IMG/VR virus record: IMGVR_UViG_3300045988_098207
Reading direction: 5' to 3' (one strand)
DNA length: 47,994 nt
Source: a virus
Shown one piece after another: positions 1 through 21,441 of this stretch. Numbering within the stretch: position 1 is the first letter of the stretch; each line of letters starts with the position of its first letter. The position numbers and the translations under genes were made by a program. Below the pieces are notes generated by a model. The model saw nothing but the letters and a program-made list of their open reading frames with translations. It was not told the origin of the DNA and made no database searches.

Positions 1-55
1 TTGTTTGCTCTGACCCCGCAAAGTTCAACGACAGCAATTATGAGGGTTATTCTCA
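1..55. repeat. Terminal self-overlap of the contig (identical to 47940-47994); circular or circularly permuted genome of 47,939 bp
   Basis: nt 1-55 (ttgtttgctctgaccccgcaaagttcaacgacagcaattatgagggttattctca) recur exactly at 47940-47994. One ORF runs through the junction in frame. Confidence 0.9.
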
Positions 56-338
56 TGTCGGCAATGAAGCCCGTACAGAGGGTTATGTGAAAGAGGTCAT
101 TTTCGGAGAGGGTGGCGAGATTATGCCAAAGACAGTCGGTGGCGGTTCTACCACTTATTTCTGTGATTATCATTACACAAACATTCCAACGACTGAAACA
201 CTCCGTGGGGTTCTGTTCGGCGGTAGTGCGAATTCCGGCTCGTCTGCGGGCTTCGCTTATGCGTATTCGTCTTTCGCCCCCTCGGCTGCGAATTCGTACT
301 TCGGTTCTCGCCTTTGCTTTTTCCCCGCAACAGCGTAA
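1..338 (+). CDS. C-terminal part of the wrap-around fibre/receptor-binding candidate, carrying VR-like repeat 1
   Basis: In frame with 46826-47994 across the junction. Ends ..LRGVLFGGSANSGSSAGFAYAYSSFAPSAANSYFGSRLCFFPATA, stop TAA 336-338. This is the Gly/Ser/Asn-rich C-terminus typical of DGR target domains. Confidence 0.75.
   Translation, partial: VCSDPAKFNDSNYEGYSHVGNEARTEGYVKEVIFGEGGEIMPKTVGGGSTTYFCDYHYTNIPTTETLRGVLFGGSANSGSSAGFAYAYSSFAPSAANSYFGSRLCFFPATA
246..320 (+). repeat. VR-like repeat copy 1 (partner 13129-13203)
   Basis: 68/75 nt identical to 13129-13203. All 7 mismatches are at codon positions 1-2. The 3' 26 nt are invariant. Confidence 0.7.
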
Positions 339-384
339 CACGCCCCTCGTTTATCGTTTAACCCTTTAACTCAATCAAAAGACA

Positions 385-776
385 ATGGAAGAAAATAAGA
401 AGCCCGATGACGGTTCACTTGCCTTTCTGAACATACCCCGTGACGAAAGCAACCGTTCTTTCAACTTGAAGACGGTCTGTCCTTGAAGATAAAAGGCAAC
501 TATCAGATATTCCCCGTGGCGAAGAACCGTTATGACAGACACGGGCGTGCGCTTGATTATGTCGGTTACAAGTTCTTCCGAGAACAGAAGTTGATGCGCA
601 AGTCAATAAAACAGAATTTCTGCCGTGAAGTCGCCCGCCTGAACAAACGGGAGAAGCCGTTAAGCCAAAAGGCATACAAACAGGCTGTCTGCCCGTGGTT
701 GGGTTGGGCGAAACACAGCAATTCAAGACATCTTTTGAAAACAATTATTAAACAGAAGTATTATGGCATTCTATGA
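385..776 (+). pseudogene. Remnant of a DGR-type reverse transcriptase (C-terminal thumb region only; fingers and palm deleted)
   Basis: Frame-0 translation from 444 reads FFQLEDGLSLKIKGNYQIFPV..GRALDYVGYKFFREQKLMRKSIKQNF..WLGWAKHSNSRHLL..KYYGIL. By eye this matches the last ~110 aa of Bordetella phage Brt as I recall it (GLKISHWQVAPVSRGINFLGYRIWPTHKLLRKS..WSGHAQWADTHNLF..QYGI). The shifted ORF 385-486 (..KKPDDGSLAF..) may hold the YxDD remnant. Only ~50-100 nt separate it from the upstream stop. Confidence 0.7.
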
Positions 777-1170
777 CAACAAGCCCTCCAAGTTGGAGGC
801 AGTGGGTAACGGTTCTTACTTGTACCGTTGGAATATTCAGGAGGTAAAGCCTGAGAGCGTTGAAAAGACCTCAGAAGAGGGCGCAGAGGCTCAGGCAGAG
901 AAAGCCCCTCAGTTCTCATGTGAAGAGGTCTCAGTATGGGAACCGCTGACCTCAAACAAAATCACAGAGGCGGTAATTACCTCAAAGTGGGACGCTAATT
1001 ACGAGCAGAAACTTGTCAACGAGTACAACGCCGCACAGCTCGGTTTATACGGCGCAAAGACATCTGACGAGGCGAAAGCCCACATTAAGGCTTACACAGA
1101 TTATCTTACAGAGCGTGCCGCCCTGAAAACTCAGGTAGATGCGGACTGCGCCGAGTTCGGTATTCTCTAA
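763..1170 (+). CDS. Hypothetical protein (135 aa) in the tail-fibre region
   Basis: ATG-initiated ORF on the same strand, overlapping the end of the RT remnant by 14 nt. No motif recognised. Confidence 0.5.
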   Translation: MAFYDNKPSKLEAVGNGSYLYRWNIQEVKPESVEKTSEEGAEAQAEKAPQFSCEEVSVWEPLTSNKITEAVITSKWDANYEQKLVNEYNAAQLGLYGAKTSDEAKAHIKAYTDYLTERAALKTQVDADCAEFGIL

Positions 1171-1295
1171 CTCTCTGTTTCAGGAGTGAGGGGCGGGCGG
1201 TTCAGACTGTCAGCCTCTCTACTCTTTGAAAAATGGCGGTAACTCATTCTAAAGCCCCACAAAGCGTTTTGAAGTGATTACCTTATAAGCATACC

Positions 1296-1342
1296 ACAGA
1301 GAAAAGTAAACGCCGTGTGCGTCAAATTCGCAAAAAATAACT
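1296..1342 (+). promoter_or_regulatory. Intergenic repeat element, partial copy (3' box only), 16 nt upstream of the fibre gene start
   Basis: agagaaaagtaaacgccgtgtgcgtcaaattcgcaaaaaataact closely matches 37035-37080 and the 3' boxes at 21507-21539, 24441-24475 and complement(29922-29954). Confidence 0.6.
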
Positions 1343-1358
1343 CTCAAATAAAACGACA

Positions 1359-4300
1359 ATGATAATTTACAACGACAAAGGCAAAAAGCTCCTTGAAATT
1401 GAGGTTGACGATAACAGTTATCGCCACAGAGTTATCATGGGCGATTATAACCTCACGCTTTATTACAGCCTCGCAGAACACGTTGAGTTGCCCGTGGGCT
1501 GTTATTGTGACTATCAGGGAGAACGCTTCACGCTTGAACGCCCTGAGGCTTTCAAGATGAAACACAGCCGCAGTTTTGAATACACCGTGACAATGGAGAG
1601 CAGTCAGGCAAAGGCGAAGATTTGGAAGTTCAGAAACCCCGTTGACGGGCGACTGAAATTCAGCCTGACCGCCAAGCCCCATGAGCACCTCCAAATGTTC
1701 GTTGACAACATGAACCGCCGTGACACGGGTTGGGCGGTCGGCTCTTGTGTGTCAGGCGATGAAGTCTGCATATCGTACAGCCACGCTTTCTGTTATGAGG
1801 CGTTGGAACAAATGGCTTCAACCCTGAACACGGAATTTGAGTTCAACGGCAAGACCGTCTCGCTCCGCAAGGTTGAATATAACAAGAACAACCCGCTGCC
1901 GCTCTCATACGGGCGGGGTAACGGCTTCAAGCCAAATGTGGGGCGTTCTAACTATGGGGACACGCCACCGACTGAAATTCTCTACGTTCAGGGCGGTTCA
2001 GACAATATAGACCCGAGCAAATACGGAAGCTCAGAACTTCTTTTGCCGAAGTCTCAGTCAATAGGCTTTGACGGCGTTTACTTTGAAGACGAAGAGGGCT
2101 TCAACGCTGACAACGCCCGTTACTATATGACTGACGATTTGGGGTTCTCAATCAGAAGAAAGGACAAAGACCTGACAAGCCTCGCCGAGAGCAGTCTTGA
2201 CTGTTCAGACATCTACCCGAAGCGTGTCAGCGAAATATCTTCTGTTGTGTGTGTTGACAAAGACAAGAACTTTTACGACATCATAGACAACTCAATCCCT
2301 GAGAACCTTGACTACGAGAAATGCCTGATAGACGGCGAGACCATGACAGTTATCTTTCAGACGGGCATGTTAGCGGGAAAAGAGTTTGAAGTGAAATACT
2401 ACCACAACTCAATTCTGAACCCTGACGGCTCTTTGAAGAAAGCCGCCCGCCGCTTTGAGATAACGCCGCAAGAGATTGACGGGCAGACCATGCCGAATGA
2501 GACCTTTTGCCCACGGGCTAACGAGAAATACGCTGTCTTCAAGTGTATGTTGCCTGACGCTTATATCTGCGACAACGCCACAAAGTCAGGGGCTTCATGG
2601 GACATGTTCCGTCAAGCCGTGAAAAGTCTCTTTGACAACGAGGAGACTAAGTTCACGTTCACGGGAGACCTTGACGGCATTTGGGCAAAGAAAGATTGGC
2701 TGAACATAGGCGGGCGCATCAAGCTCGGCGGGTATATAAAGTTCTCCGATGAACGCTTTCAGAAAGACGGCGTTCTCGTCCGCATCACGGGCATTAAAGA
2801 TTATATCAACAAGCCGCACAGCCCCTCTCTTGAACTGTCAAACGAGACGAAAAGCGCATCTTTCTCTTCAAAGTTGAAGCAGCTTGAAAGCGAGGAGGTG
2901 GTCATTGAAGACAACCACCGTGAGGCTATTCAATTCACAAAGAGACGGTTCAGGGACGCAAAAGAGACAATGAGCATGTTGGAGGCTTCGCTGCTTGAAA
3001 ACTTCACTCAGAGCATAAGCCCAATCGCCATACAGACCATGCAGATGCTTGTCGGCGATGAAAGTCTTCAATTCCGTTTCGTCTCTTCAAAGACAAACCC
3101 GACACAGGTCAGCCATACGATAAACTACGATCAGGAGACAAAGACCCTGAAAGCGGCTGCGGGTCTCATTCAGCACCTGACGCTCGGCGTGTCTTCTTTG
3201 AGTTCATCGCATAAGCCCGAAGAATACTTATATTGGAACGTTGAAGAGTTTGAGAGCGCAAGACTTGAAGACGGGTCAAAGAAGTATTATCTATACGCAA
3301 AGGTTAGCAAGACAGCCGACAAGGGCGTTTTCTTTCTCTCTGAGAGCGCAAAAACGTTGAATGGGGTTGACGGTCACTACTGCCTCCTTGTCGGCGTTCT
3401 GAACAGCGAATACAACGGGGAGAGAAGTTTTGCCACGCTCTACGGCTTCACAGAGATATTGCCAGGGCGAGTAACGACCGACAGAGTTGTTTCAGGTGAC
3501 GGCAACAGCTATTTTGATATGCTCGCCAACGCCATGAAGCTCGGGGACGCTCTTGACTTCAATTCGGCGGGGGACGGTAAGCTCAGAATAAAAGGCACAA
3601 TCGTTCAGAGCCAAAGCGGTCAAGAGAGCTATATCGGCTGTTATATGGGCGAATACAACGCCTCATACACTTATTATAATGGCGATGAGGTTACTTTCAC
3701 AAAAGACGGCAATACGTCAACATACAGAATGTTCAGCGACACGCCTGTCAAAGGCGTTGAGCCGACAAACTCTCTTTATTGGCAAGTCGTAGCTCAGGGT
3801 TCAAAGGGGGCTGACGGCACTTCTGTTAAAATCAAGGGTCAGGCTTACGCACATTATTCAACAAAGGAAGAATGGAAGCCTGACAGAAGAAAGCCCGTTG
3901 TCCTGATTGATAAATATACGCTGACATCGGGGGAAACGACCGAGGATAAATATTGTGTTGTCAAGAAGCTCGGAAGACCCTTTGCGGGAGCGGCTGAGGG
4001 TTGGGTGACCGTTTACGCAGAGGAGGGAGACGCTTATATGATGAACTCGGACGATGAAGCCTTGAACGGTTGTATGTATGTGCCTCAGACAGACAAATGG
4101 CAAAACGTGGGTCGGATAAAAGGCGACAAAGGCGACACGGGTCAAGAAGGCGCAGCGGGTAAGTTCACTGAACTACGTTACGCCAAGAACGGCTCAACAA
4201 CAACGCCGCCCGCTCTGTCAAAATCAAGCCTGAACCCGTCAGGGTGGACTACTGAGGTGCCAACGGTTGCAAGTCTTGAATATCTATGGCAGACAACAGC

Positions 4301-5747
4301 CGTGAAGTCAGGTGACGGAAAGACGCTTCTTTCTCAGTGGTCAACCCCCGTGAGAGTAACTCCGTACAACGGTGTTGACGGTCAAGACGGCGCAGACGGT
4401 AAGGACGGAACAAACGGGCGTGGTATAAGAAGTGTGACAGAGTACTACGGGGTCAGTCAGAACAGCAATGTCAGACCAACCGTTTGGTCTATTTCTTCTG
4501 TGCCTACACTCTCTGAGACAAACAAGTATCTTTGGAATTATGAACGCATCATTTATACTGACGGCTCTTCTGTCACTACTCCCGCTGTTATTATCGGCTG
4601 TTATGGCGACAAAGGGCGTGGTATTGTTTCGATAACGGAAATGTACCTTGCCACGAACCTCTCAACGGGCGTGACAAAGAACACTATCGGTTGGAGCAGT
4701 TCTGTTCAGGATATTTCAGCCTCGCGCCCGTACTTATATAATTATGAGATTATAAAGTACTCAGACAACACAACAGAAGAGACAGGCGTTGCCCTGATTG
4801 GGCGTTGGGGAGCTGACGGCTCAGACGGTCAAGACGGGCGGGACGGCGTATCTGCTGCCTCAGTCTATCGTGGAGAATACTCTTCAACAAAGCGGTATTA
4901 CGGTAACTCATTCAGGGTTGACATCGTGAAGTATAACTCGGCTTATTATATCAGCCGTGTTGACGCTCCAAACGGGTCAGGCGGCTTCACGGGCGTTGCG
5001 CCAACCAATACAAATTATTGGAACGCATACGGGGCGAGCTTTGAGAGTGTGGCGACAAGTCTTTTGTTGGCTGAACTTGCCAATATTGCGGGGTTCATCT
5101 TCCGCAACAACCGTCTTGAAAGTCAGACCCTTTCAGACGGTTCAACAACAGACGGGGCGACAAGCAAAACTCCTATGGTGTTCCTGAACGGTCTCACGGG
5201 TCAGGTTTCATTTGCGGGCGGTAAGGTTGTATTCAACTCTGACGGAACTGTGAACATCGGCAACGGCAAATTCACTGTTGACAAGAACGGCAACACAACG
5301 ATGAACAATGTCACGATGAACAACATCACAGCGAACTCAGGAACATTCAAAGGGGTTATCAATGCCGATGCGGGCTTGATTATGAAAGTGGAGAAATTCA
5401 CGGCTAATCAAGAGTATTATTACCTGAAATCAGAAACAACGGTTTTAATAGTTCAAACCCCCTATGGCAAAGAACAGGGAGACGCACATTTTCAAAAAAT
5501 AGTCTTGCCTCAGAACCCGAATGTCGGTCAAGTTCTGACAATAATCAACAACAACGCCTATCCTTGGTACACAGAGTTGAGAATTTACGGGAACGGTCAC
5601 AGAATTATCCCGTCATGCGGAGACACATTATGGGGGAACAAGACTTGGGATGCGGGTTATTATTTGCCGCTCGCCTCACAGAGGGGTAAGCAACTCATTT
5701 TTGACGGCTCAATGTGGTGGCAGATAAATATGTTCAACGGGTATTAA
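1359..5747 (+). CDS. Large tail-associated fibre / antireceptor protein (Tal-like N-terminus, collagen-like stretches, repeated fibre domains), 1462 aa
   Basis: N-terminus (MIIYNDKGKKLLEIEVDDNSYRHRVIMGDYNLTLYY..) resembles siphophage minor structural/tail endopeptidase N-terminal regions. G-X-Y runs: GDKGDTGQEGAAG, GVDGQDGADGKDGTNG, GADGSDGQDGRDG. Three tandem ..YLW(N/Q).. domains. Confidence 0.7.
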   Translation: MIIYNDKGKKLLEIEVDDNSYRHRVIMGDYNLTLYYSLAEHVELPVGCYCDYQGERFTLERPEAFKMKHSRSFEYTVTMESSQAKAKIWKFRNPVDGRLKFSLTAKPHEHLQMFVDNMNRRDTGWAVGSCVSGDEVCISYSHAFCYEALEQMASTLNTEFEFNGKTVSLRKVEYNKNNPLPLSYGRGNGFKPNVGRSNYGDTPPTEILYVQGGSDNIDPSKYGSSELLLPKSQSIGFDGVYFEDEEGFNADNARYYMTDDLGFSIRRKDKDLTSLAESSLDCSDIYPKRVSEISSVVCVDKDKNFYDIIDNSIPENLDYEKCLIDGETMTVIFQTGMLAGKEFEVKYYHNSILNPDGSLKKAARRFEITPQEIDGQTMPNETFCPRANEKYAVFKCMLPDAYICDNATKSGASWDMFRQAVKSLFDNEETKFTFTGDLDGIWAKKDWLNIGGRIKLGGYIKFSDERFQKDGVLVRITGIKDYINKPHSPSLELSNETKSASFSSKLKQLESEEVVIEDNHREAIQFTKRRFRDAKETMSMLEASLLENFTQSISPIAIQTMQMLVGDESLQFRFVSSKTNPTQVSHTINYDQETKTLKAAAGLIQHLTLGVSSLSSSHKPEEYLYWNVEEFESARLEDGSKKYYLYAKVSKTADKGVFFLSESAKTLNGVDGHYCLLVGVLNSEYNGERSFATLYGFTEILPGRVTTDRVVSGDGNSYFDMLANAMKLGDALDFNSAGDGKLRIKGTIVQSQSGQESYIGCYMGEYNASYTYYNGDEVTFTKDGNTSTYRMFSDTPVKGVEPTNSLYWQVVAQGSKGADGTSVKIKGQAYAHYSTKEEWKPDRRKPVVLIDKYTLTSGETTEDKYCVVKKLGRPFAGAAEGWVTVYAEEGDAYMMNSDDEALNGCMYVPQTDKWQNVGRIKGDKGDTGQEGAAGKFTELRYAKNGSTTTPPALSKSSLNPSGWTTEVPTVASLEYLWQTTAVKSGDGKTLLSQWSTPVRVTPYNGVDGQDGADGKDGTNGRGIRSVTEYYGVSQNSNVRPTVWSISSVPTLSETNKYLWNYERIIYTDGSSVTTPAVIIGCYGDKGRGIVSITEMYLATNLSTGVTKNTIGWSSSVQDISASRPYLYNYEIIKYSDNTTEETGVALIGRWGADGSDGQDGRDGVSAASVYRGEYSSTKRYYGNSFRVDIVKYNSAYYISRVDAPNGSGGFTGVAPTNTNYWNAYGASFESVATSLLLAELANIAGFIFRNNRLESQTLSDGSTTDGATSKTPMVFLNGLTGQVSFAGGKVVFNSDGTVNIGNGKFTVDKNGNTTMNNVTMNNITANSGTFKGVINADAGLIMKVEKFTANQEYYYLKSETTVLIVQTPYGKEQGDAHFQKIVLPQNPNVGQVLTIINNNAYPWYTELRIYGNGHRIIPSCGDTLWGNKTWDAGYYLPLASQRGKQLIFDGSMWWQINMFNGY

Positions 5748-5769
5748 TACTCACTTAAATAAAAAGAAA

Positions 5770-6006
5770 ATGAAACAGAAAATTTTCAAATGGTTATCAG
5801 CGAGCAATCGTTGGAAACATTTTGTCGGCGGGGTCATGATTGGACTTGGGGCTGACGATTGGTATTGCGCCTGTTATACGGGTGCGGGTGTTGGAGGTGC
5901 TCTTGAACTGAAAGACGTTCTTTATGGCGGCTCTTGGGATTGGATAGACTTCGCTCTGACAGCGAGCGGGGCGGTTGTCGGACATTCAATCAGGGCGGTG
6001 CTATGA
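5770..6006 (+). CDS. Small membrane protein, holin candidate (78 aa)
   Basis: Gly-rich hydrophobic segments (FVGGVMIGLGA, TGAGVGGAL, FALTASGAVVG). Sits at the head of the lysis cassette, with an ATGA overlap to the next gene. Confidence 0.4.
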   Translation: MKQKIFKWLSASNRWKHFVGGVMIGLGADDWYCACYTGAGVGGALELKDVLYGGSWDWIDFALTASGAVVGHSIRAVL

Positions 6007-6605
6007 ATGAGGTTCAACAAGTTACAGAGATAGCCAAAGGCATAAGCGACTATGGCTTAATGGCTGTCACGGCGGCTTTCTTTCTTCTTCTGTCGGCGGC
6101 GATGATGATAGCCATTTTCAGATGGTTCAAATCAATGATTAACCGCATGTTAGAACAGCAAGAATGCCTGAGACAGTTGTTAGACATTCTTCAAGACAAC
6201 AACGCAGCGATAAAAAACCTTGCTGAACGTCTTGAACCTGAGACACAGATGCGCATCAGAAACCTGACGGGCTTTGCCTTTGACCTCACGGTGGAACAGG
6301 TCTGCCGCCTTATTAAGAGGGTCAGAAAAGAAAACCACATCATCGACCATGAGGCAACGGCAGAGAAGATACGAAAGTCTCTCAAAGTCATTCATGAAGA
6401 CAGAAACAGCCGCTTTGACCCGTTCACATACCACGGGAAACCGCTGTCAGACTTCTGCGCCCCTGAATGGGTTGAAGACGTGGCAAAGGTCGTTGAGAGT
6501 GAAATCTACAATGCGGACGGGGAAAACAACGCCCGTGCTTACACGAATGTTAAACTTGCGTATGATAATATCAAAACAGAGTTTTATCAACGCTTAAACG
6601 GTTAA
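6003..6605 (+). CDS. N-terminally membrane-anchored protein in the lysis cassette (holin/antiholin or i-spanin-like), 200 aa
   Basis: ATG 6003 overlaps the upstream stop. One TM helix (GLMAVTAAFFLLLSAAMMIAIF) is followed by a charged, helical region. Start chosen over the track's upstream alternative at 5934. Confidence 0.35.
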   Translation: MNEVQQVTEIAKGISDYGLMAVTAAFFLLLSAAMMIAIFRWFKSMINRMLEQQECLRQLLDILQDNNAAIKNLAERLEPETQMRIRNLTGFAFDLTVEQVCRLIKRVRKENHIIDHEATAEKIRKSLKVIHEDRNSRFDPFTYHGKPLSDFCAPEWVEDVAKVVESEIYNADGENNARAYTNVKLAYDNIKTEFYQRLNG

Positions 6606-6611
6606 AATGAT

Positions 6612-7211
6612 ATGATAGTAATTATTGACAACGGTCACGGAGAAGACACAGCGGGCAAGCGTTCTCCTGACGGAAGACTGAGAGAGTACGCCTACGCCCG
6701 TGAGATTGCCAAGCGTCTGCAGTGTGCTTTATGCCATGAGCTTGGGGCTGGTCATGTTTTTCTCTTAACCCCTGAAACAAACGACATCAGCCTGAAAGAA
6801 CGCTGTCAGAGGGCAAACAACCTCTGCAAGGCTCACGGGGCTTCAAACGCTCTGTTGGTCTCAATTCACAACAACGCAGCGGGGGCTGACGGCAAATGGC
6901 ATGAAGCCCGTGGGTGGTCGGCACACGTCTCTCTGAATGCCTCTCAGAAGAGCAAGACGCTTGCAACGTATCTTGCTCAGGCGGCAGAGAAAAACGGACT
7001 GAGAGTGAGAAAATACACGCCACAGCAGCCGTTCATCACTCAGAACCTCGCTATCTGCCGAGATACAAGCTGCCCCGCCGTTCTGACTGAGAACCTTTTT
7101 CAGGACAACAAAGAAGACGTAGATTTTCTTCTGAGTGAAGAGGGTAAGCAGCTCATTACAAAGGTTCATGTGGACGGCATTCTGTCTTATATCAAAAGCG
7201 TGAAGAAATGA
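6612..7211 (+). CDS. N-acetylmuramoyl-L-alanine amidase endolysin (Amidase_3-like)
   Basis: IIDNGHGEDTAGKRSPDG.. near the N-terminus, ..LLVSIHNNAAG.. and ..PAVLTENLFQDN.. These are motifs typical of zinc amidase endolysins. Confidence 0.75.
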   Translation: MIVIIDNGHGEDTAGKRSPDGRLREYAYAREIAKRLQCALCHELGAGHVFLLTPETNDISLKERCQRANNLCKAHGASNALLVSIHNNAAGADGKWHEARGWSAHVSLNASQKSKTLATYLAQAAEKNGLRVRKYTPQQPFITQNLAICRDTSCPAVLTENLFQDNKEDVDFLLSEEGKQLITKVHVDGILSYIKSVKK

Positions 7212-7690
7212 CAAAGAAACTGTTCATCTTATTGGCGGCGGTCTCACTCATGTGGGGCTGCTGCCCTTGCAGAAACCTGACAACAGAAACAGACCGTCAG
7301 GACAGCACCCGTGTTGAGGTCAGGACGCAGACAATTCTCGTTCCTGATACGGTCTTTCTTGAAATACCCGCTCAGACGGCAGAGCGCACAACCCGTGACA
7401 GCGTTTCACACCTTGAAAACGAATATGCCACCTCTGACGCTCGTATCAACCCTGACGGCTCTCTGTTTCACGATCTGCGGACAAAGCCTCAGAAGAAAGC
7501 CATTGAGACGGACAAGAAGATTGAGAAACGGGACAGCGTAGTTTATCGGTACAGATACCTGAAAGTCAAAGAAAAAGTTTCAGTTCCCCGTGACCTGACA
7601 AAGTTTCAGAAATGTGAAATCTTCGGTTTTTGGTTCTTGTTGGCAATCTTCGCCTTGGTTGTGTACCTGAAACGGCTTCAAAAACAGTGA
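7208..7690 (+). CDS. Lipoprotein with a C-terminal TM helix: unimolecular spanin candidate
   Basis: Signal/lipobox-like N-terminus (MTKKLFILLAAVSLMWGCC) and C-terminal TM segment (IFGFWFLLAIFALVVYL). Last gene of the lysis cassette, with an ATGA overlap to the amidase gene. Confidence 0.4.
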   Translation: MTKKLFILLAAVSLMWGCCPCRNLTTETDRQDSTRVEVRTQTILVPDTVFLEIPAQTAERTTRDSVSHLENEYATSDARINPDGSLFHDLRTKPQKKAIETDKKIEKRDSVVYRYRYLKVKEKVSVPRDLTKFQKCEIFGFWFLLAIFALVVYLKRLQKQ

Positions 7691-7759
7691 AAACGCTAAA
7701 AATGATTAAGGCGTAAGCACAAAAATCGGAAATTCTGTCGGAATTAAAAAAGAAATTCT

Positions 7760-7767
7760 TACCTTTG
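7760..7767 (+). promoter_or_regulatory. Bacteroidota-type -7 promoter box TAccTTTG upstream of the HsdR_N-like gene
   Basis: Exact match to the TAnnTTTG consensus in an intergenic region. Confidence 0.4.
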
Positions 7768-7855
7768 TGACAAAATTTGAAAATATAGCGTTTGCTATTG
7801 TTTTGAGGGTCAAGAAAATCGCCAAAATTTCAGACAGCCTTAAAAGCAATGGTAG

Positions 7856-7952
7856 ATGCCCACGTATATCGTGGGCATTTTCCTTGTAGGCTGTTCGGGT
7901 GTTTGGCGATACCTCTTGACCGACAAGGGGATGCCCACGTTTTTACGTTGGG
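7856..7952 (+). promoter_or_regulatory. Leader with two hairpins sharing the arm gatgcccacgt (possible attenuator or terminator)
   Basis: atgcccacg(7856-7864)/cgtgggcat(7870-7878) form a 9-bp stem with loop tatat, followed by TTT. The arm atgcccacg recurs at 7931-7939 and pairs with 7945-7952, so 7870-7878 could pair with either copy. Confidence 0.35.
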
Positions 7953-8016
7953 TCTCTGTGACAACGGCGAGCCGTGTTTTGCAAAGGTACAGAGTTTTAA
8001 CGTAAAAACAGCAGAT

Positions 8017-14754: not shown

Positions 14755-16128
14755 ATGATACAGTTACGTTCAAATCAGGTTGAGCCGATAGAAAAGGCTA
14801 TCAGTTTCTTTCAAGAGAAGAAGCCGAAGCCCTCTTTGATTGTTCTCCCGACAGCATGGGGAAAATCAATTCTGACAGCCTTTGTCGCGAAGAACACGAA
14901 CGATAAAATGATTGTTCTTCAACCCTCAAAAGAGTTGTTGGAACAGAACTATTTGAAGTATGTGAACCTCTGTGACGGGTTCGCAAATGCGGGTATATAC
15001 AGCGCAAGTTTCGGGAGCAAGGAAATCGCTCAGATAACCTACGCCACGATAGGTTCAATCAAGACGCTCGGGGCGAAGTTCAAGGCTCTCGGCTTCACAA
15101 AAATGCTGATAGACGAGGCACACCTCTTCCCCCGTGAGGCTGACAGCATGCTCGGCACGTTTCTCAAAGAGAGCGGCATCACTCACGTTCTCGGCATAAC
15201 GGCGACACCTGTCAAGCTGCAGACGGGCAGAGACCAATTCGGACAGAATTATTCAAAGCTCGTCATGCTGACATCAAGAAGCAAAAAGGGAAATTTCTTC
15301 AAAGACATTATTCATGTCGGTCAGGTCTCAGAAATGGTGCGCCTCGGCTTTTGGTCTCCCCTGACTTATGAGGCTTCACAGTTTGACAATAGCCAACTTG
15401 TCTTCAACAGTTCAAAAAGCGAGTACACGGAGGACAGCGTTCAAAGGGCTTTTGAAGAGAACGGCGGCACACAGACGATTGTCAACGCTCTTGACGCTCA
15501 CCCTGAACGGCAGCACATTCTCGCCTTTGCCCCCTCAGTTCAGGACGCTATCAGCCTCTCAGAGCGTTATCCGAACTCGGCTGTCATATACGGCGATATG
15601 GATAAGCGTGAGAGGGCTTCAATCATTGAGCGTTTCAGAAAGGGCGAAATACGGGTCATATTTAACGTAAGAGTGCTTTCAACGGGCTTTGACTATACAG
15701 GTATCGATTGCATTGTTTTAGGCGTTTCTACGGCTTCTATCGCCCTCTATTATCAAATCATCGGACGAGCCACCCGTATTGACCCTCAGAAGAAAGACGC
15801 TCTGATAGTTGACCTCGGCGGCAACGTTCAGCGTTTCGGGCGTGTTGAAGACCTGACCTTTGAGAAAGGCAGAATGTGGCGTTTGTTCGGTTCAGGCGGG
15901 CGGCTGCTCTCAGGCATACCAATCGCAGACATCGGTCAGTACACCCGTGAGGACACTCAGGCTATTGACGCTCAGGCGGCGCAGCCTATTCAGGTTATGC
16001 CTTTCGGCAAATATAAGGGGGAAAAGATAAGCAACATACCTCTTGACTACCGCAAATGGATGATACGGGCTTTTGAGTGGAACAGCCGAAACGTGAAACT
16101 GAAAAAATCAATCATGGCAACCCTTTAA
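14755..16128 (+). CDS. Superfamily-2 DEAD/DEAH-box helicase
   Basis: Motif I LPTAWGKS, motif II LIDEAH, motif III TATP, motif VI QIIGRATR. C-terminal MPFGKYKGEKISNIPLDYRKWM module. ATG 14755 preferred over 14662. Confidence 0.85.
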   Translation: MIQLRSNQVEPIEKAISFFQEKKPKPSLIVLPTAWGKSILTAFVAKNTNDKMIVLQPSKELLEQNYLKYVNLCDGFANAGIYSASFGSKEIAQITYATIGSIKTLGAKFKALGFTKMLIDEAHLFPREADSMLGTFLKESGITHVLGITATPVKLQTGRDQFGQNYSKLVMLTSRSKKGNFFKDIIHVGQVSEMVRLGFWSPLTYEASQFDNSQLVFNSSKSEYTEDSVQRAFEENGGTQTIVNALDAHPERQHILAFAPSVQDAISLSERYPNSAVIYGDMDKRERASIIERFRKGEIRVIFNVRVLSTGFDYTGIDCIVLGVSTASIALYYQIIGRATRIDPQKKDALIVDLGGNVQRFGRVEDLTFEKGRMWRLFGSGGRLLSGIPIADIGQYTREDTQAIDAQAAQPIQVMPFGKYKGEKISNIPLDYRKWMIRAFEWNSRNVKLKKSIMATL

Positions 16129-16141
16129 TCAAGACAACATT

Positions 16142-17128
16142 ATGGCAAGACCAAAACGAACGACAGTTGATTATTACCCGCATTATGTGAAATGCGGGCG
16201 CACGATCTACATTCTTGAAGCCCGCTTCGGGAATGACGGTTATGCTTTTTGGTTCAAGGTTCTTGAAGTTCTCGGGGAGAGCGAGGGGCATTTCTATGAC
16301 TGTTCTGTTTCTTCAAATTGGGAGTATCTTCTTGCAAAGACACGGGTCAACGCTCAGACGGCGACAGAAATAATCGGGGTTCTTATCAACCTCGGGAAAA
16401 TTGATGCAGAGCTATGGGAAAAGAACCGTGTTATTTGGATAGAGAATTTTGTCAACAACCTCACAGAGGTTTACAGAACCCGCCGAACGGAATTGCCTCA
16501 AAAGCCTGTTTTCAAAGAAGAAAAACAACAGCCTGAAAAGGTTATCTCCGAGAAAACCCCTGATAAAGAGCCGTTAAAAGAGATAAAACCCGCCAAAGGA
16601 GAGAAGAGTAAAGGAGAGGAGAGCAAAGAGAAATATCCTTATCAGGATATAGTCGCCATGTGGAACTCTGTCTGTCTCTCATGCCCAAAGGTTCTCAAAG
16701 TCACAGAGGCGAGAAAACAGAAAATGAAGACCCGCTTTCAAGAGTTCGGCGTGAAGCGTGAAGAACTGACAGATTACGTGATGCGCCTTTTTCAGCGTGT
16801 TCAGGCTTCTGACTTTCTCACGGGGCGCAGCACTGACAAAATGGGTTGGGTTGCAAATTTTGATTGGGTCTTTGAGAATGAGAAAAACTGGGTCAAGGTC
16901 TCTGAGGGCAACTACGACAACAAGAGGGGCGGCGGCTCAAACACGGCACAGAAGCCCGTACAAGCCGCTGACGGCTCTCAGGTTCAGTTGGGCGTTGGAG
17001 AATACATAGACGGCTCAGGGCGGCGTACATACGGCACGGGGCGGGCTAATATCCCAATGACGGCAGCACCCCGCCCGTCTGAGCGTTATTCATGGGACGC
17101 TGCTTCACATACATGGATTTTGCAATGA
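16142..17128 (+). CDS. Replication initiation / DnaD-like protein (DUF4373-type N-terminus)
   Basis: ..DYYPHYVKCGRTIYILEARFGNDGYAFWFKVLEVLGESEGHFYD.. Position between the helicase and primase genes. Confidence 0.55.
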   Translation: MARPKRTTVDYYPHYVKCGRTIYILEARFGNDGYAFWFKVLEVLGESEGHFYDCSVSSNWEYLLAKTRVNAQTATEIIGVLINLGKIDAELWEKNRVIWIENFVNNLTEVYRTRRTELPQKPVFKEEKQQPEKVISEKTPDKEPLKEIKPAKGEKSKGEESKEKYPYQDIVAMWNSVCLSCPKVLKVTEARKQKMKTRFQEFGVKREELTDYVMRLFQRVQASDFLTGRSTDKMGWVANFDWVFENEKNWVKVSEGNYDNKRGGGSNTAQKPVQAADGSQVQLGVGEYIDGSGRRTYGTGRANIPMTAAPRPSERYSWDAASHTWILQ

Positions 17129-17301
17129 AACAGAAGAAAACGGACATCAGCCTTGAAGAAAAGGCGGGCAAACGGTCTCAGCCGTTCTTGCTCAAAGTGT
17201 AATCATTTCCCCTGTTCAGAAGTCTTTTCAAGGCTCTGCAGCGAGGCTTTTATTGAGGGCTTCAAAAAGGGTTATCAAAAACACAGAAAGGAATTATCAA
17301 A

Positions 17302-19116
17302 ATGAAAAGTTATTCAGACTTCGGCATAAATATCCCCTACGGGCGCACATCGGGAAAGGTCAAGACCTATTGCCCGAAATGTCACGACCAAAGGCATGAC
17401 AGACGCGACAAAAGTCTTTCTGTTGACCTTGACAAAGGTCTTTGGAATTGTCATTATTGCGGTTGGGGCGGGTCTCTTGAAACAAAAGAGCCTTGGGAGC
17501 GTGAAGAACGCCCGTGGCACAACTACGCTCCGATAAAGCGTCAGAAGTCTGTCTACAAGAAGCCCCCTCAGCACGCTTTGACGGCTGTCAGCGAGAGAGC
17601 CTTGAAGTGGTTTGAGGGAAGAGGAATAAGCGCAGCGACCCTGAACGCTCTGAAAGTCTCAGAGGGCATGGAATGGATGCCGCAGAACAACGCTCAGTCG
17701 AACACGGTTCAGTTTAACTACTTCCTGAACGGTCAGCTCGTCAACACAAAATACCGCACGGGCGACAAGAAGTTCAAGCTCGTTTCAGGGGCGCAGCTTA
17801 TCCCGTACAACATTGATGCGATCAAGGGTCAGAAAGAGTGTATCGTGACAGAGGGCGAAATGGACGCTCTCTCATTCTACGAGATTGGCTTTCATAACGT
17901 TGTCAGCGTCCCGAACGGGGCTAACGCAAACCTTGAATACCTTGACGATTTCATCGAAGAGTATTTTGACGACAAAGAGACAATCTACATAGCCTCTGAC
18001 ACAGACACAAAGGGCGTTCTCCTGAAAGACGAGCTTTTGAGACGCTTCGGGGCTGAACGCTGCCGCATACTTGACTACGGTCAGGACTGCAAAGACGCTA
18101 ACGAGGTCTTGATGAAATACGGGGCGGCGGCTCTGAAAAAATGTCTGTCAGAAGCTCCCGAGGTCAAGTTGGAGGGGGTCTTCACGGTCTCTGACTTCGA
18201 ATCGAACCTTGACGCTCTCTTTGAACACGGTATGCAGAAAGGCGCAACGATAGGGCTTGAAAACCTTGACCGCCTTATTTCATTTGAGACGAAACGCATC
18301 TGTGTCGTGACGGGTATTCCTGGCTCGGGTAAGTCTGAGTTCATTGACCAAATCGCCGAGAGGCTCAACATGCGCTACGGGTGGAAATTCGCGTATTTCA
18401 GCCCTGAGAACGCTCCGCTCGAATACCATGCTTCAAAACTGATTGAGAAGTTCACGGGGCAGCACTTTGACCGTCAACACCTGACGCTCCCCGCTTACCG
18501 TCAGATAAAAGAATATCTGAACACGAACTTTTTCTTTATCAGCCCAAAGGAAGATTACAGGCTCGACACAATTCTTGAAAAAGCCCGCTTTCTTGTCAGA
18601 CGGCGTGGCATAAAATGTCTTGTCATTGACCCGTACAACCGCTTGGAGGACGAGAGTGACGGACACAACGAAACAAAGTATATTTCAAAGCAGCTTGACC
18701 GTCTGACGAACTTTGCACAGCGCAATGACGTTATGGTCATTCTCATGGCGCACCCGACAAAACAGTCAAAGAACAAAGACGGGGTTATCGAAGCCCCCAC
18801 CCTTTATGACATCAGCGGCTCGGCGCACTTTTATAACAAAACAGACTTCGGTATTGTCGTTCACAGAAACAGAATTGACAACACGGTGGAGGTTCACGTT
18901 CAAAAGGTGAAATTCAGGCACCTCGGAGAGTGCGGAACGGCTCTCTTCAAATACAACCTGAACAACGGGCGTTACAGCCCATATACGGCGGGGGTTGAAC
19001 CCGTATGGGACAACTCAAACCATCTTCAAGAGGAAATGAACAGACGGGCGAAAGAGGCGGAGGAGGCTGCGGTCTTTGACTTCACGGCTCAACCGCTTGA
19101 CGATTGCCCGTTCTGA
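17302..19116 (+). CDS. Bifunctional DNA primase / DnaB-like replicative helicase
   Basis: Zinc finger CPKCHD..CHYCGWGG, Toprim ..CIVTEGEMDALSF.., Walker A VVTGIPGSGKSEF, Walker B CLVIDPYN. Ends ..PLDDCPF. Confidence 0.85.
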   Translation: MKSYSDFGINIPYGRTSGKVKTYCPKCHDQRHDRRDKSLSVDLDKGLWNCHYCGWGGSLETKEPWEREERPWHNYAPIKRQKSVYKKPPQHALTAVSERALKWFEGRGISAATLNALKVSEGMEWMPQNNAQSNTVQFNYFLNGQLVNTKYRTGDKKFKLVSGAQLIPYNIDAIKGQKECIVTEGEMDALSFYEIGFHNVVSVPNGANANLEYLDDFIEEYFDDKETIYIASDTDTKGVLLKDELLRRFGAERCRILDYGQDCKDANEVLMKYGAAALKKCLSEAPEVKLEGVFTVSDFESNLDALFEHGMQKGATIGLENLDRLISFETKRICVVTGIPGSGKSEFIDQIAERLNMRYGWKFAYFSPENAPLEYHASKLIEKFTGQHFDRQHLTLPAYRQIKEYLNTNFFFISPKEDYRLDTILEKARFLVRRRGIKCLVIDPYNRLEDESDGHNETKYISKQLDRLTNFAQRNDVMVILMAHPTKQSKNKDGVIEAPTLYDISGSAHFYNKTDFGIVVHRNRIDNTVEVHVQKVKFRHLGECGTALFKYNLNNGRYSPYTAGVEPVWDNSNHLQEEMNRRAKEAEEAAVFDFTAQPLDDCPF

Positions 19117-19150
19117 CGAGATATAAGTTTAACCAAAACAGACAGACAAA

Positions 19151-19702
19151 ATGGAAAGTAAAAAAGAATTTGACAGCCTGAAAGACAAACTGAAAAAGTT
19201 AAAGGCTCTCGCAGAAAGAGGCTGCGGAGGAGAGGCAGAAAACGCACAGAGGCTCTTAGAGCGTCTCTGTGCCGCTAACGGCATTGACTTGGAATTACTT
19301 AACGATGAAGAAAAGAAAAGCCGTTATACGTTCAATATCGGGCGTAATCGGGTCTTTATAACTCTGTTCACGCAATGTTACTGCAAGGTCACAGATAGCT
19401 CGAAAATGAGTTACAGACAAGAATCCCGCTCTGAAATCTCTCTTGAACTCACTCAGGTTGACTATGCAGAATTGAAAGGGCTGTATGAATGGCATAAGGC
19501 AAATTTTGAAAAAGAACTTGAAGACATCAAAAAGACAATTATTCATGCTTATTGCCAAAAGCACAGACTTTATCCTGAAAGCCCCTCTGAGACCTCAAAC
19601 GACAAGCCCCTGACAGAAGAGGATTTGGAAATGCTCAGAAAGGTTATGAAAATGGAGGGGCTTCTTAACGACAAGACTTATCAACACTTAATCGAAGAAT
19701 GA
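19151..19702 (+). CDS. Hypothetical protein, DUF2786-like N-terminus (183 aa)
   Basis: ..KLKKLKALAERGCGGEAENAQRLLERLCAANGIDL.. Confidence 0.4.
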   Translation: MESKKEFDSLKDKLKKLKALAERGCGGEAENAQRLLERLCAANGIDLELLNDEEKKSRYTFNIGRNRVFITLFTQCYCKVTDSSKMSYRQESRSEISLELTQVDYAELKGLYEWHKANFEKELEDIKKTIIHAYCQKHRLYPESPSETSNDKPLTEEDLEMLRKVMKMEGLLNDKTYQHLIEE

Positions 19703-19740
19703 TATGGAAAGAAATAAGTTTAACCAAATAAACAGACAAA

Positions 19741-20262
19741 ATGAAAACATTTGTGATTACACTATCAAAGACGTTCCCGAGAACGCACATTCATTCAGGG
19801 CGTGAGACTAATTTCGCTCATCTACTCGGCAACGGGTTGAACCTGACAGAAGACGGCTTGAAAATTTGCCGTCACAAAATTCACACGGTCAGGACAAACC
19901 TCCCATTATGGGAGAAACGAATTTCTGAAATACAGAGCGGGCAAGCGGTTCTCTCAATCAGAGAATGGACGGGCAGACCATACGGAAGCCCTCAGAAAGA
20001 ACTCGCACGACTCACAGGTTCTGACGGCGTTGGGGTTCAGGCTCTTAAACTTAAAGACCTTTTCTGTTCGACAGTTATTGACGGAGAAAAGGTTGAATTG
20101 CCCGATTTAGCGGCGCATGACGGGCTTTCGTTCTCAGATTGGTATGATTGGTTCAGAAAGGTTGATTTAAGACAGCCAATGGCAATTATTCACTTTACAA
20201 AATTCAGATATGGAAAGACAAGTGACAGTAGAAGAAGTGAGAAGTTTCCTCTCGGCTTCTGA
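19741..20262 (+). CDS. Hypothetical protein (173 aa)
   Basis: ORF with a translation-initiation region nearly identical to that of 19151 (ataagtttaaccaaa..acagacaaaATG). Confidence 0.5.
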   Translation: MKTFVITLSKTFPRTHIHSGRETNFAHLLGNGLNLTEDGLKICRHKIHTVRTNLPLWEKRISEIQSGQAVLSIREWTGRPYGSPQKELARLTGSDGVGVQALKLKDLFCSTVIDGEKVELPDLAAHDGLSFSDWYDWFRKVDLRQPMAIIHFTKFRYGKTSDSRRSEKFPLGF

Positions 20263-20407
20263 CAGACAATTTGTGAAAAGCGGCATCAGAGTTTCCCGTG
20301 TCCGCTTCAAACGTGATGAAGAGGGCAACTGCACGGACATTCTCCTTGACTACGAACAGACAGTTTCAGAAACAGGGGAAAATAACGCTCAGGAGGGTTC
20401 AAAATGA
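20210..20407 (+). CDS. Hypothetical protein (65 aa)
   Basis: ATG ORF overlapping the upstream gene by 53 nt. Coding assignment for 20298-20586 remains ambiguous. Confidence 0.35.
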   Translation: MERQVTVEEVRSFLSASDRQFVKSGIRVSRVRFKRDEEGNCTDILLDYEQTVSETGENNAQEGSK

Positions 20408-20586
20408 CAAAACACAGACTGACCCCGCAGACACGGAAAAAAGCCCCGCAAAGGGTCTCGAACCCTCAGACAAGGGCAAGGGACAACCCTCAGGGAAAAA
20501 GACAGAGAGAAGAGAGAAAACCGTGAACGCAAATGTTCTGAACTTTCTACCGAAATCGGAAGTTAAACCATAAAAATAAAAAGAAA

Positions 20587-20955
20587 ATGGAAATTATCAG
20601 CAAAATGACAATCAACGGAAAGACCCGTGTCAACGGTCGCTATGTGAACCTGACAGGGCAGAATATAACAATAACAGACGGAGGCATATTCGTGAACGGC
20701 AAGCCGCTTGAAGAGTTTGACGAGAGCCAAGTGCCTGTTCTGAGAATTGAGATAACGGGCAACGTTGAGAGCCTGACAACAGAGAACGGCGAGGTTACCG
20801 TGAACGGGCGTGTTGGCACAGTTGTCTCAAAGAACGGCAATGTCAACTGTCAGACGGTTGAGGGCAACGTGGAGAGCAAGAACGGCAATGTCATGTGCGG
20901 CAAAATCATGGGAGACTGTGACACAAAGAACGGCAACATCATGCGTGGCTATTAA
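20587..20955 (+). CDS. Repeat protein with a bactofilin-like beta-helical pattern (122 aa)
   Basis: Recurrent ..NG.V..G.. units, including SKNGNVNC / SKNGNVMC / TKNGNIMRG. Confidence 0.45.
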   Translation: MEIISKMTINGKTRVNGRYVNLTGQNITITDGGIFVNGKPLEEFDESQVPVLRIEITGNVESLTTENGEVTVNGRVGTVVSKNGNVNCQTVEGNVESKNGNVMCGKIMGDCDTKNGNIMRGY

Positions 20956-20990
20956 ATCATCATTCAATAACATTTCAAAACAGAAAGAAA

Positions 20991-21356
20991 ATGGGAAATT
21001 ACAGCATTAAGGCAAACCTCCTGAAAATAAAGGGGGCTTTTGTGACAAACCTCAAAGGCAAGACAGCCACAAGGCGTTGCCTCGTTATTGACATTGACGA
21101 GAGCGGAATGTTCCTCGGCGAGAAAGGTTGTTACCTGAACATGGCGGCGATAGAAATGAATGAGAGCCGCTACGGGGACACTCACGTTGTCAAGGTCTCA
21201 CTCGCCAAGGAGGTTGTTGAGAAAATGACAGAAGAAGAGCGCAAGGCAATCCCTATCCTCGGCGGCATGCACCCGCTTCAATCTCAGGCGCAGCAAATTC
21301 AGGGTCAGTTGGACGGGGCTTCTGTATGTGAGAATATGGACGATCTGCCGTTCTGA
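20991..21356 (+). CDS. SSB-like protein candidate with a bacterial-SSB-type acidic tip (..ENMDDLPF)
   Basis: 121 aa in the replication module. The C-terminus DDLPF equals the canonical SSB C-terminal peptide. The fold is not verifiable by eye. Confidence 0.45.
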   Translation: MGNYSIKANLLKIKGAFVTNLKGKTATRRCLVIDIDESGMFLGEKGCYLNMAAIEMNESRYGDTHVVKVSLAKEVVEKMTEEERKAIPILGGMHPLQSQAQQIQGQLDGASVCENMDDLPF

Positions 21357-21406
21357 TAATCATCAGGCGGGCGCAGCCTCTTCTGAGACTGACAGAATTT
21401 CAAGGG

Positions 21407-21431: not shown

Positions 21432-21441
21432 GTCCCAAAAG

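What the first reader, a model, noticed from the sequence alone, without database searches (positions are those of the whole stretch)
246..320. Paired 75-nt repeats at the 3' ends of two unrelated genes carry a DGR variable-region signature
Nt 246-320 (C-terminus of the wrap-around fibre candidate) and nt 13129-13203 (C-terminus of early gene 12691-13281) are 68/75 identical and lose similarity abruptly at the 3' boundary. The 7 mismatches are at 264, 265, 270, 274, 286, 292, 294 versus 13147, 13148, 13153, 13157, 13169, 13175, 13177. All fall on codon positions 1 or 2 and none on position 3. At 6 of the 7 sites one of the two copies carries A. The last 26 nt (tacttcggttctcgcctttgcttt) are invariant, like an IMH-type boundary. 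The peptides (AGFAYAYSSFAPSAANSYFGSRLCF and AGFAYAASTYAPSDATTYFGSRLCF) resemble the variable C-terminal strand of C-type-lectin/FGE-fold DGR targets. This is what two variable regions written from one adenine-rich template would look like. Neither copy can be the template itself, because each has non-A bases at sites where the other differs. A DGR-type RT remnant lies just downstream of copy 1.
Basis: partly seen in the sequence, partly recalled or inferred. Interest (0 to 1): 0.8.

Follow-up and report, generated by a model that had tools for sequence, protein, structure and literature searches.

The report
Two orphan variable regions, dead retroelement
The two 75-base repeats are the two hypervariable target sites of a diversity-generating retroelement in a gut Bacteroides phage, left frozen because a 1.4-kb deletion removed the template and most of the reverse transcriptase; two-target phage retroelements of this kind are already published.

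Summary
Nt 246-320 and 13129-13203 are 68/75 identical, and all 7 mismatches fall on codon positions 1 or 2. The window has no third copy and no template repeat (TR).

Close relatives carry an intact cassette: tail-protein target, 118-aa accessory gene, 120-nt TR, 389-aa reverse transcriptase (RT). Against the TR of the nearest relative (L038):
- VR1 (true extent 203-322) differs at 21 sites, all TR adenines (0 of 91 non-A sites).
- VR2 (13129-13203) differs at 12 sites, all TR adenines (0 of 56 non-A sites).
- All 7 copy1/copy2 mismatch sites are A in the TR.

The window lost 1,390 bp between two 7-nt repeats (TTCAACT, junction 460-466). The deletion removed accessory-gene codons 28-118, the TR and RT residues 1 to about 284. 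Both VRs are therefore orphaned.

VR1 lies in a tail protein (phrog_5302). VR2 lies in a 196-aa protein of unknown function (phrog_11581) inside the replication/recombination module. That protein is homologous to the published second, non-structural DGR target of Quimbyvirus/LoVEphage.

Verdict: a new, degenerate member of a known kind, of modest interest.

The parts
46827..47994 (+). 5' part of the VR1 target gene. The 483-aa tail protein continues at window position 56 because 1-55 repeats 47940-47994.
   Evidence: The ORF is reconstructed across the circular junction. It matches phrog_5302 'tail protein' over its full length, E=1.9e-141. It lies after the tape-measure and tail genes.
1..338 (+). 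3' part of the VR1 target gene, ending with the stop codon at 336-338.
   Evidence: Relatives encode the same 483-aa protein directly upstream of the DGR cassette.
203..322 (+). VR1, the full variable region (120 nt). The finding's copy 1 (246-320) is its 3' part.
   Evidence: It aligns without gaps to the L038 TR. There are 21 mismatches, all at TR adenines (21 of 29 A sites, 0 of 91 non-A sites; Fisher p=3e-17).
299..320 (+). IMH-like 3' end of VR1: CTTCGGTTCTCGCCTTTGCTTT. The TR reads CATCGGTTCTCACCTATGCTTT here.
   Evidence: Three TR-specific bases in this stretch never appear in any of the 39 distinct VR1/VR2 sequences examined.
385..486 (+). Truncated accessory gene: codons 1-27 of the 118-aa protein, then 6 out-of-frame codons and a stop.
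   Evidence: tblastn matches accessory residues 1-28 at 86% identity. Translation.
460..466 (+). Deletion junction. One copy of TTCAACT remains where relatives have two copies 1,390 bp apart.
   Evidence: Window 320-466 equals L038 6909-7055, and window 460-1400 equals L038 8446-9387. Both flanks in L038 carry TTCAACT.
467..776 (+). RT pseudogene: the C-terminal part only (about residues 285-389), lacking the IGNYLSQ and YADD motifs.
   Evidence: The intact RT in relatives passes Pfam RVT_1.
12691..13281 (+). VR2 target gene: a 196-aa protein of unknown function in the replication/recombination module.
   Evidence: It matches phrog_11581 over its full length, E=3.4e-62. Its neighbours are a RecE/YqaJ-like exonuclease, a helicase, a replication initiator and a primase-helicase. 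It is a homologue of LoVEphage CDS 33613-34197, which carries that phage's second VR.
13129..13203 (+). VR2 (75 nt), corresponding to TR positions 44-118 only.
   Evidence: 12 mismatches to the L038 TR, all at TR adenines (12 of 19 A sites, 0 of 56 non-A sites; Fisher p=2e-9). Among 11 relatives with conserved flanks, 15 of 19 A sites vary against 3 of 56 non-A sites.
13182..13203 (+). IMH-like 3' end of VR2, identical to that of VR1.
13205..13217 (+). Small hairpin AGAGC-GAA-GCTCT just after VR2. It is a possible target-recognition element but is unproven.
   Evidence: DNA fold of 13180-13263 gives z=-2.5. VR1 has no comparable hairpin, so the evidence is inconclusive.

Best explanation
The two repeats are the two variable regions (VR1 in a tail protein, VR2 in a small early-region protein) of one diversity-generating retroelement (DGR) in a temperate Bacteroidota siphovirus-like phage.

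In intact relatives the cassette sits directly after the tail-protein gene. It consists of a 118-aa accessory gene, a 120-nt adenine-rich template repeat (TR, with ten AAY codons) and a 389-aa RT.

The mechanism below is inferred from the Bordetella phage BPP-1 paradigm. The TR transcript is reverse-transcribed with errors opposite adenines. The cDNA then replaces the VR, with its 3' end fixed at an IMH-like sequence (CTTCGGTTCTCGCCTTTGCTTT) that differs from the TR at three bases.

Both targets are written from the same TR. VR1 takes all 120 nt. VR2 takes only the 3' 75 nt, because upstream homology has been lost in this lineage.

In this window a 1,390-bp deletion between two TTCAACT heptamers removed accessory-gene codons 28-118, the whole TR and RT residues 1 to about 284. 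Diversification has therefore stopped, and the two VRs are frozen products of the last writing events.

Shown here:
- the TR-to-VR adenine-specific pattern for both VRs;
- the deletion;
- the absence of any other RT or TR in the window;
- hypervariation of both VRs among relatives.

Inferred: the retrohoming mechanism itself, and the function of the VR2 protein, which is unknown.
For: - Adenine specificity: VR1 and VR2 differ from the nearest relative's TR only at TR adenines (21/0 and 12/0 mismatches at A/non-A sites). All 7 copy1/copy2 mismatches fall on TR-A sites; the chance of that is 2.5e-5.
- Same pattern within single genomes: in two complete relatives that hold TR, VR1 and VR2 on one contig, the counts are 12/0, 14/1, 13/0 and 15/0. 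Non-A TR polymorphisms (GCT/GCC, AAT/AAC) are mirrored in both VRs of the same genome.
- Population variation: 15 of 19 TR-A sites vary against 3 of 56 non-A sites in VR2, while its flanks are conserved. At the protein level, variation is confined to AGFAxAxSxxAPSxTxxxxGSRLCF.
- Intact cassette in relatives: target, accessory gene, TR and RT are present. The RT passes Pfam RVT_1 and carries IGNYLSQ and YADD.
- Deletion: it is mapped to the base, with a 7-nt microhomology.
- Nothing else in the window: there is no other RT (tblastn), and the TR matches no third site (word-4 ungapped blastn).
- Frozen VR2: exactly this VR2 protein occurs on 7 contigs, each from a different ENA assembly record, which fits a frozen VR.
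- Published counterpart: LoVEphage has a homologous second target that carries a VR of its own TR. Two-VR phage DGRs are described in PMC8008677 and PMC12629997.
Against: - No TR or functional RT exists in this genome, so the DGR assignment rests on relatives.
- A C-type-lectin fold could not be shown for either target.
- The accessory protein matches no Avd family.
- No downstream hairpin is shared by the two VRs.
- The deletion is seen only in this contig and in one identical ENA scaffold that may come from the same data. The junction was not found in IMG/VR or in JGI metagenome contigs.
Confidence: 0.93

Rival explanations
1. The DGR is still functional for this phage. The VRs would be rewritten in trans by an intact cassette from a co-resident related prophage or co-infecting phage, or the 1.39-kb deletion is carried by only part of the population or is an assembly error.
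For: - Both VRs keep an intact IMH-like end identical to that of active relatives.
- Intact relatives with an identical TR are very common in gut metagenomes.
- From my own knowledge, trans-complementation of TR and RT is established for BPP-1.
Against: - A 7-nt microhomology is far shorter than assembler k-mers, so a mis-join there is unlikely.
- An ENA scaffold is identical across the junction.
- The same VR2 protein recurs unchanged on 7 contigs.
- Other relatives show independent deletions in the cassette, so decay is a real and recurrent process.
Confidence: 0.1
2. The repeats are ordinary paralogous segments, or the result of gene conversion between two genes that share a C-terminal motif, with no retroelement involved.
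For: The GSRLCF-KSEELA-YxGKQF end is conserved across the whole phrog_11581 family. The two proteins share a 40-aa module.
Against: - Differences fall only on template adenines and never on third codon positions.
- Both segments are hypervariable among otherwise near-identical genomes.
- TR polymorphisms are copied into both VRs.
Confidence: 0.02
3. One of the two copies is itself the template for the other.
For: Six of the seven mismatches involve an A in one copy.
Against: - The As are split, with 2 in copy 1 and 4 in copy 2, and one site is T versus G.
- Both copies carry the VR-type 3' end rather than the TR-type.
- Both copies lie inside protein-coding sequence.
Confidence: 0.01

Closest known systems
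Quimbyvirus / LoVEphage DGR with two variable repeats (Benler et al. 2021, PMC8008677; also four two-VR prophage species in PMC12629997)
   Same: - One TR writes two targets. One is a tail or tail-collar protein next to the cassette. The other is a distal gene of about 195 aa among DNA-metabolism and methylase genes.
- The distal target is homologous to the window's VR2 protein: 31-39% identity by tblastn, and the window protein matches phrog_11581.
- I confirmed the LoVEphage TR, VR1 and VR2 directly.
   Different: - The phage backbone is different: 48 kb against 71 kb, with no detectable DNA similarity.
- VR2 here covers only 75 of the 120 TR bases, whereas the LoVEphage VR2 covers about 110 nt.
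- VR2 is on the same strand as the cassette here.
- The cassette in this genome is deleted.
Bordetella phage BPP-1 DGR (Mtd / TR / Brt / Avd), from established literature
   Same: - Adenine-specific TR-to-VR information flow.
- AAY-rich TR.
- VR at the C-terminal end of a tail protein.
- A VR 3' end (IMH) that differs from the TR (IMH*).
- Gene order: target, accessory gene, TR, RT.
   Different: - There are two targets.
- The IMH has no 14-bp G/C-only block.
- The accessory protein has no detectable Avd similarity.
- No clear downstream hairpin follows VR1.
- The cassette is inactivated here.
Hankyphage and crAss-like phage DGRs (PMC6199706, PMC7290462)
   Same: These are gut Bacteroidota phages with tail-protein targets. 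The VR1 protein is 36-50% identical to tail proteins of crAss-like phages.
   Different: In those descriptions, which I saw only as abstracts, the target named is a tail protein and no non-structural target appears. I did not read either paper.

Membership tests
Diversity-generating retroelement (DGR) | TR/VR pair whose mismatches are restricted to TR adenines | tested here: met
   Tested against the TR of the nearest relatives. VR1 has 21 mismatches at A sites and 0 at non-A sites. VR2 has 12 and 0. Same-genome tests in two relatives agree.
Diversity-generating retroelement (DGR) | TR present in the same genome | tested here: not met
   The TR query hits only 203-322 and 13129-13203. The TR lies inside the 1,390-bp deletion.
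Diversity-generating retroelement (DGR) | Intact DGR-type reverse transcriptase near the TR | tested here: not met
   - Window: only residues from about 285 to 389 remain, with no IGNYLSQ or YADD motif and no other RT.
- Relatives: an intact 389-aa RT that passes Pfam RVT_1, carries IGNYLSQ at 217 and YADD at 262, and scores below the group II intron cut-off.
Diversity-generating retroelement (DGR) | VR 3' boundary element (IMH) that differs from the TR (IMH*) and is not overwritten | tested here: met
   The VRs read CTTCGGTTCTCGCC-TTT-GC and the TRs read CATCGGTTCTCACC-TAT-GC. The three TR bases never appear in 39 distinct VRs.
Diversity-generating retroelement (DGR) | Accessory gene (Avd or HRDC type) | tested here: inconclusive
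   Relatives have a conserved 118-aa ORF between the target and the TR (phrog_19665). It matches no Pfam or NCBIfam family. In the window it is truncated to 27 native codons.
Diversity-generating retroelement (DGR) | Hairpin or cruciform just downstream of the VR | tested here: inconclusive
   VR2 is followed by AGAGC-GAA-GCTCT (z=-2.5). VR1 has no significant structure (z about -1).
Diversity-generating retroelement (DGR) | Target VR displayed on a C-type-lectin (or Ig-like) fold | tested here: inconclusive
   - Neither target has a Pfam hit above threshold.
- The VR2 protein model is confident (pLDDT 88.8), but its best PDB fold match has E=4.5, with no C-type-lectin protein among the 15 matches listed up to E=10.
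- The VR1 protein model is too poor to judge (pLDDT 58).
Quimbyvirus/LoVEphage-type second (non-structural) DGR target, phrog_11581 | Sequence homology to the published distal target | tested here: met
   phrog_11581 matches over the full length, E=3.4e-62. tblastn gives 31-39% identity to LoVEphage and other Bacteroides phages. The LoVEphage homologue carries that phage's VR2.
Quimbyvirus/LoVEphage-type second (non-structural) DGR target, phrog_11581 | Located outside the structural module, among DNA-metabolism or counter-defence genes | tested here: met
   In the window it lies between phrog_3657 and a RecE/YqaJ exonuclease, helicase, replication initiator and primase. The context is similar in phage Versailles and LoVEphage.
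Quimbyvirus/LoVEphage-type second (non-structural) DGR target, phrog_11581 | Actually diversified by the phage's TR | tested here: met
   Adenine-restricted variation among relatives with conserved flanks.

The most novel reading that the evidence does not exclude
The phrog_11581 protein may not be a C-type-lectin protein at all. It could be a distinct, mostly helical cytoplasmic scaffold onto which the same TR-encoded module of 25-40 aa has been grafted.

If so, one template would simultaneously diversify an extracellular receptor-binding tail protein and an intracellular early protein. The early protein would probably bind a variable host factor such as a defence component.

The family is very large: 1,643 clusters at 50% identity across sipho-, podo- and crAss-like gut phages. 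It sits in early modules, and it would then be a major uncharacterised class of hypervariable phage effectors.
Probability: 0.3. Interest if true: 0.55.

Novelty: new member of a known kind. Interest (0 to 1): 0.3.

Why it matters
The finding shows that a DGR can be recognised from its products alone. Two orphan VRs that differ only at first and second codon positions were enough, even after the template and RT had been deleted.

It adds a 48-kb Bacteroidota phage lineage, widespread in gut metagenomes, to the few known phages whose DGR writes both a tail protein and a non-structural early protein.

It links that early protein to a very large uncharacterised family (phrog_11581), whose confident predicted structure has no solved relative.

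It also documents that DGR cassettes in this lineage decay repeatedly by small deletions, which fixes the specificity of both targets.

None of this changes current understanding of DGRs.

Tried and rejected
- **Closer than independent products?** The window's VR1 and VR2 agree at 8 of 15 variable A sites, 5 of them with the same non-A base. That is within the range of cross-genome VR1 x VR2 pairs (P about 0.08-0.09). Rejected.
- **Deletion hotspot in the RT?** The first three decayed relatives had right breakpoints at RT residues of about 268-284. A wider survey added breakpoints at residues 70 and 201, so there is no hotspot.
- **Shared hairpin after both VRs?** Only VR2 has one.
- **Fold of the VR1 protein.** The AlphaFold model had pLDDT 58, so the fold search was meaningless.
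- **Sequence-level annotation.** Pfam gave nothing above threshold for either target, the RT remnant or the accessory stub. PDB sequence searches of the two targets gave only chance-level matches.
- **Deletion junction elsewhere.** Exact scans for the junction in IMG/VR and JGI metagenome contigs found nothing.
- **VR1 and VR2 in one locus.** I tried fetching flanks around the amidase gene. This failed because in prophages the two VRs lie at opposite ends of the element.
- **Known phage relatives at DNA level.** Megablast of half the window against GenBank phages found no match.

Full report
**Observation**

The window is a circular contig. Bases 1-55 repeat 47940-47994, so the true length is 47,939 bp. 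Copy 1 (246-320) lies near the end of a 483-aa ORF that starts at 46827 and wraps round to 338. Copy 2 (13129-13203) lies in the 196-aa ORF 12691-13281, 26 codons before its stop.

The copies are 68/75 identical. The seven mismatches are at the stated coordinates, and all fall on codon position 1 or 2 in both frames. One copy carries A at six of the seven sites. Similarity ends abruptly at 320/13203. Sub-segments of 18 and 24 nt occur exactly twice in the window even with three mismatches allowed, against none expected in shuffles.

**Relatives**

An exact scan of IMG/VR for TTCGGTTCTCGCCTTTGC returned 40 loci. They fall mainly into two sequence contexts, one like the tail gene and one like the early gene. 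Within each context the flanks are conserved, while the segment varies in the pattern GCGnnnTCGnnTnnCGCCCCCTCGnnTnCGnnTnCGnnC.

Relatives carry a complete cassette directly after the 483-aa gene: a 118-aa accessory ORF, a 120-nt repeat rich in AAT/AAC codons, and a 389-aa RT. The RT passes Pfam RVT_1 and has IGNYLSQ at residue 217 and YADD at 262. Fourteen template repeats were recovered.

**The decisive test**

Each comparison below is against a TR, counted as mismatches at TR adenines versus mismatches at non-A positions.

| Comparison | Mismatches at A sites | Mismatches at non-A sites | Source |
|---|---|---|---|
| Window VR1 (203-322) vs L038 TR | 21 of 29 | 0 of 91 (Fisher p=3e-17) | |
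| Window VR2 (13129-13203) vs L038 TR | 12 of 19 | 0 of 56 (Fisher p=2e-9) | |
| L011 VR1 vs L011 TR | 12 | 0 | |
| L025 VR2 vs L011 TR (same contig) | 14 | 1 | |
| L035 VR1 vs L035 TR | 13 | 0 | |
| L023 VR2 vs L035 TR (same contig) | 15 | 0 | |

L038 is the nearest relative, 99% identical in the flanks. Its TR core (7406-7480) is identical in L008, L057 and L058.

All seven copy1/copy2 mismatch sites are A in the TR; the chance of that is 2.5e-5. Non-adenine TR polymorphisms (GCT/GCC, AAT/AAC) are mirrored in both VRs of the same genome. That shows information flowing from the TR to both sites. The window's VRs carry the L038-type alleles, which identifies the lost template.

Among 11 VR2 relatives, 15 of 19 TR-A sites vary against 3 of 56 non-A sites. 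In 64 proteins, variation is confined to AGFAxAxSxxAPSxTxxxxGSRLCF.

The VR 3' end (CTTCGGTTCTCGCCTTTGC) differs from the TR (CATCGGTTCTCACCTATGC) at three bases. Those three TR bases never appear in 39 distinct VRs. This behaves like an IMH/IMH* pair.

**The cassette is deleted here**

- Window 320-466 matches L038 6909-7055, and window 460-1400 matches L038 8446-9387.
- The missing 1,390 bp are bounded in L038 by two copies of TTCAACT, of which one remains at 460-466.
- The deletion removed accessory-gene codons 28-118, the TR, and RT residues 1 to about 284.
- What remains is a 33-codon stub (385-486) and an RT tail (to 776) without catalytic motifs.
- No other RT is detectable. With the parameters used in the literature for finding remote VRs, the TR hits only the two VRs.
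- An ENA scaffold is identical over window 1-8747, including the junction. It may derive from the same data.
- Exactly this VR2 protein occurs on seven contigs, each from a different ENA assembly record, as expected for a frozen VR.

Decay is recurrent in this lineage. L053, L071, L077 and L018 carry independent deletions in the cassette, and L068 lacks both the target and the cassette.

**The targets**

The VR1 protein matches phrog_5302 'tail protein' over its full length. It lies after the tape-measure and tail genes and before a 1,462-aa fibre-like protein and the lysis genes. It is 36-50% identical to tail proteins of crAss-like phages.

The VR2 protein matches phrog_11581 (unknown function). 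It lies among a RecE/YqaJ-like exonuclease, a helicase, a replication initiator and a primase-helicase. Its family is very large: more than 7,800 clusters at 90% identity and 1,643 at 50%. The conserved motifs are ITERIKTFEDAC, AYLKLRIIAAALNEGW, RWYPWF and GSRLxFKSEELAxYxGKQF.

A profile of the family aligns to the tail protein only over the 40 residues encoded by the VR. The AlphaFold model of the VR2 protein is confident (pLDDT 88.8), largely helical, and least confident across the VR-encoded stretch. Its best PDB fold match has E=4.5, with no C-type-lectin protein among the matches listed. It matches only uncharacterised viral proteins. The tail-protein model was too poor to use.

Host context (SusC/SusD genes and integrases next to prophage copies, and Bacteroides-named homologues) indicates a temperate Bacteroidota phage.

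**Comparison with what is known**

Benler et al. (PMC8008677) described Quimbyvirus, whose DGR has two variable repeats. One is in a structural gene. The other is in a distal, probably non-structural gene near methyltransferases and a tRNA ligase. A 2025 study found four prophage species with such a second VR (PMC12629997).

The window's VR2 protein is homologous to LoVEphage CDS 33613-34197, which lies in exactly that neighbourhood. I verified that this CDS carries a VR matching the LoVEphage TR (49393-49500, minus strand) and the tail-collar VR. The kind is therefore already known.

This lineage differs in four ways. The backbone is a 48-kb genome with no DNA match in GenBank phages. VR2 uses only the 3' 75 nt of the TR, with only 13 nt of homology before the first variable site. 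VR2 is on the same strand as the cassette. The cassette in this genome is dead.

**Verdict**

This is a new, degenerate member of a known kind. The most interesting open point is what the phrog_11581 protein does and whether it is a new scaffold for DGR diversification.

Noticed in passing
window 1-55 and 47940-47994: The two ends of the window are an identical 55-nt overlap. The contig is therefore circular or circularly assembled, with a true length of 47,939 bp.
   Followed up: yes
L053 3515-3740; L071; L077; L018; L068: Relatives show independent decay of the DGR cassette.
- L053 has an 861-bp RT deletion (microhomology CTGAAA) and a 48-nt deletion inside the TR between two CTCGAAT repeats.
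- L071 is deleted from accessory codon 78 to RT residue 201.
- L077 retains only RT residues 70-389; no accessory-gene match was found.
- L018 has an in-frame RT deletion from residue 66 to about 268.
- L068 lacks the tail target and the whole cassette.
The right breakpoints first looked clustered, but the wider survey shows no hotspot.
   Followed up: partly
L055 2615-2660: The 5' part of this relative's TR carries VR-like substitutions at adenine positions (TTCGGCGGTAGTGCGCATTAC instead of TTCAGCGGTAATGCGAATAAC). This suggests VR-to-TR conversion or a chimeric assembly.
   Followed up: no
window 7849-8977 versus L043 1-1600: L043 has the same VR2 and is 99.99% identical over window 8690-23281. 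It has a tyrosine integrase immediately left of the position equivalent to 8690. The window has no integrase homologue there, and its HSDR_N-like gene is 312 aa instead of the 416 aa seen in prophage copies. A second rearrangement or module difference may exist near the attachment site.
   Followed up: partly
L033 (VR2-type context) and LoVEphage L089 34003-34115: In other lineages the early-gene VR spans the whole TR, including the RGxxFGG part. In the window's lineage only the 3' 75 nt remain homologous, and the upstream codon is TGG or TAT.
   Followed up: partly
window 13205-13217: The hairpin AGAGC-GAA-GCTCT starts two bases after VR2. Some relatives could form GAGCG-ACA-CGCTC at the same place. 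VR1 has no equivalent.
   Followed up: partly
TR of relatives, e.g. L038 7363-7482: Three TR adenines upstream of the IMH-like end (in the codons AGC, AGC and ACC) are G in the VRs examined (checked by eye; two divergent VR1 loci, L005 and L006, differ at the third). This presumably reflects selection for Gly/Gly/Ala scaffold residues after each writing event.
   Followed up: no
L042-L048: The window's exact VR2 protein occurs on seven contigs, each from a different ENA assembly record. Three of the records are labelled PRJNA217052 or BRIT16.
   Followed up: partly
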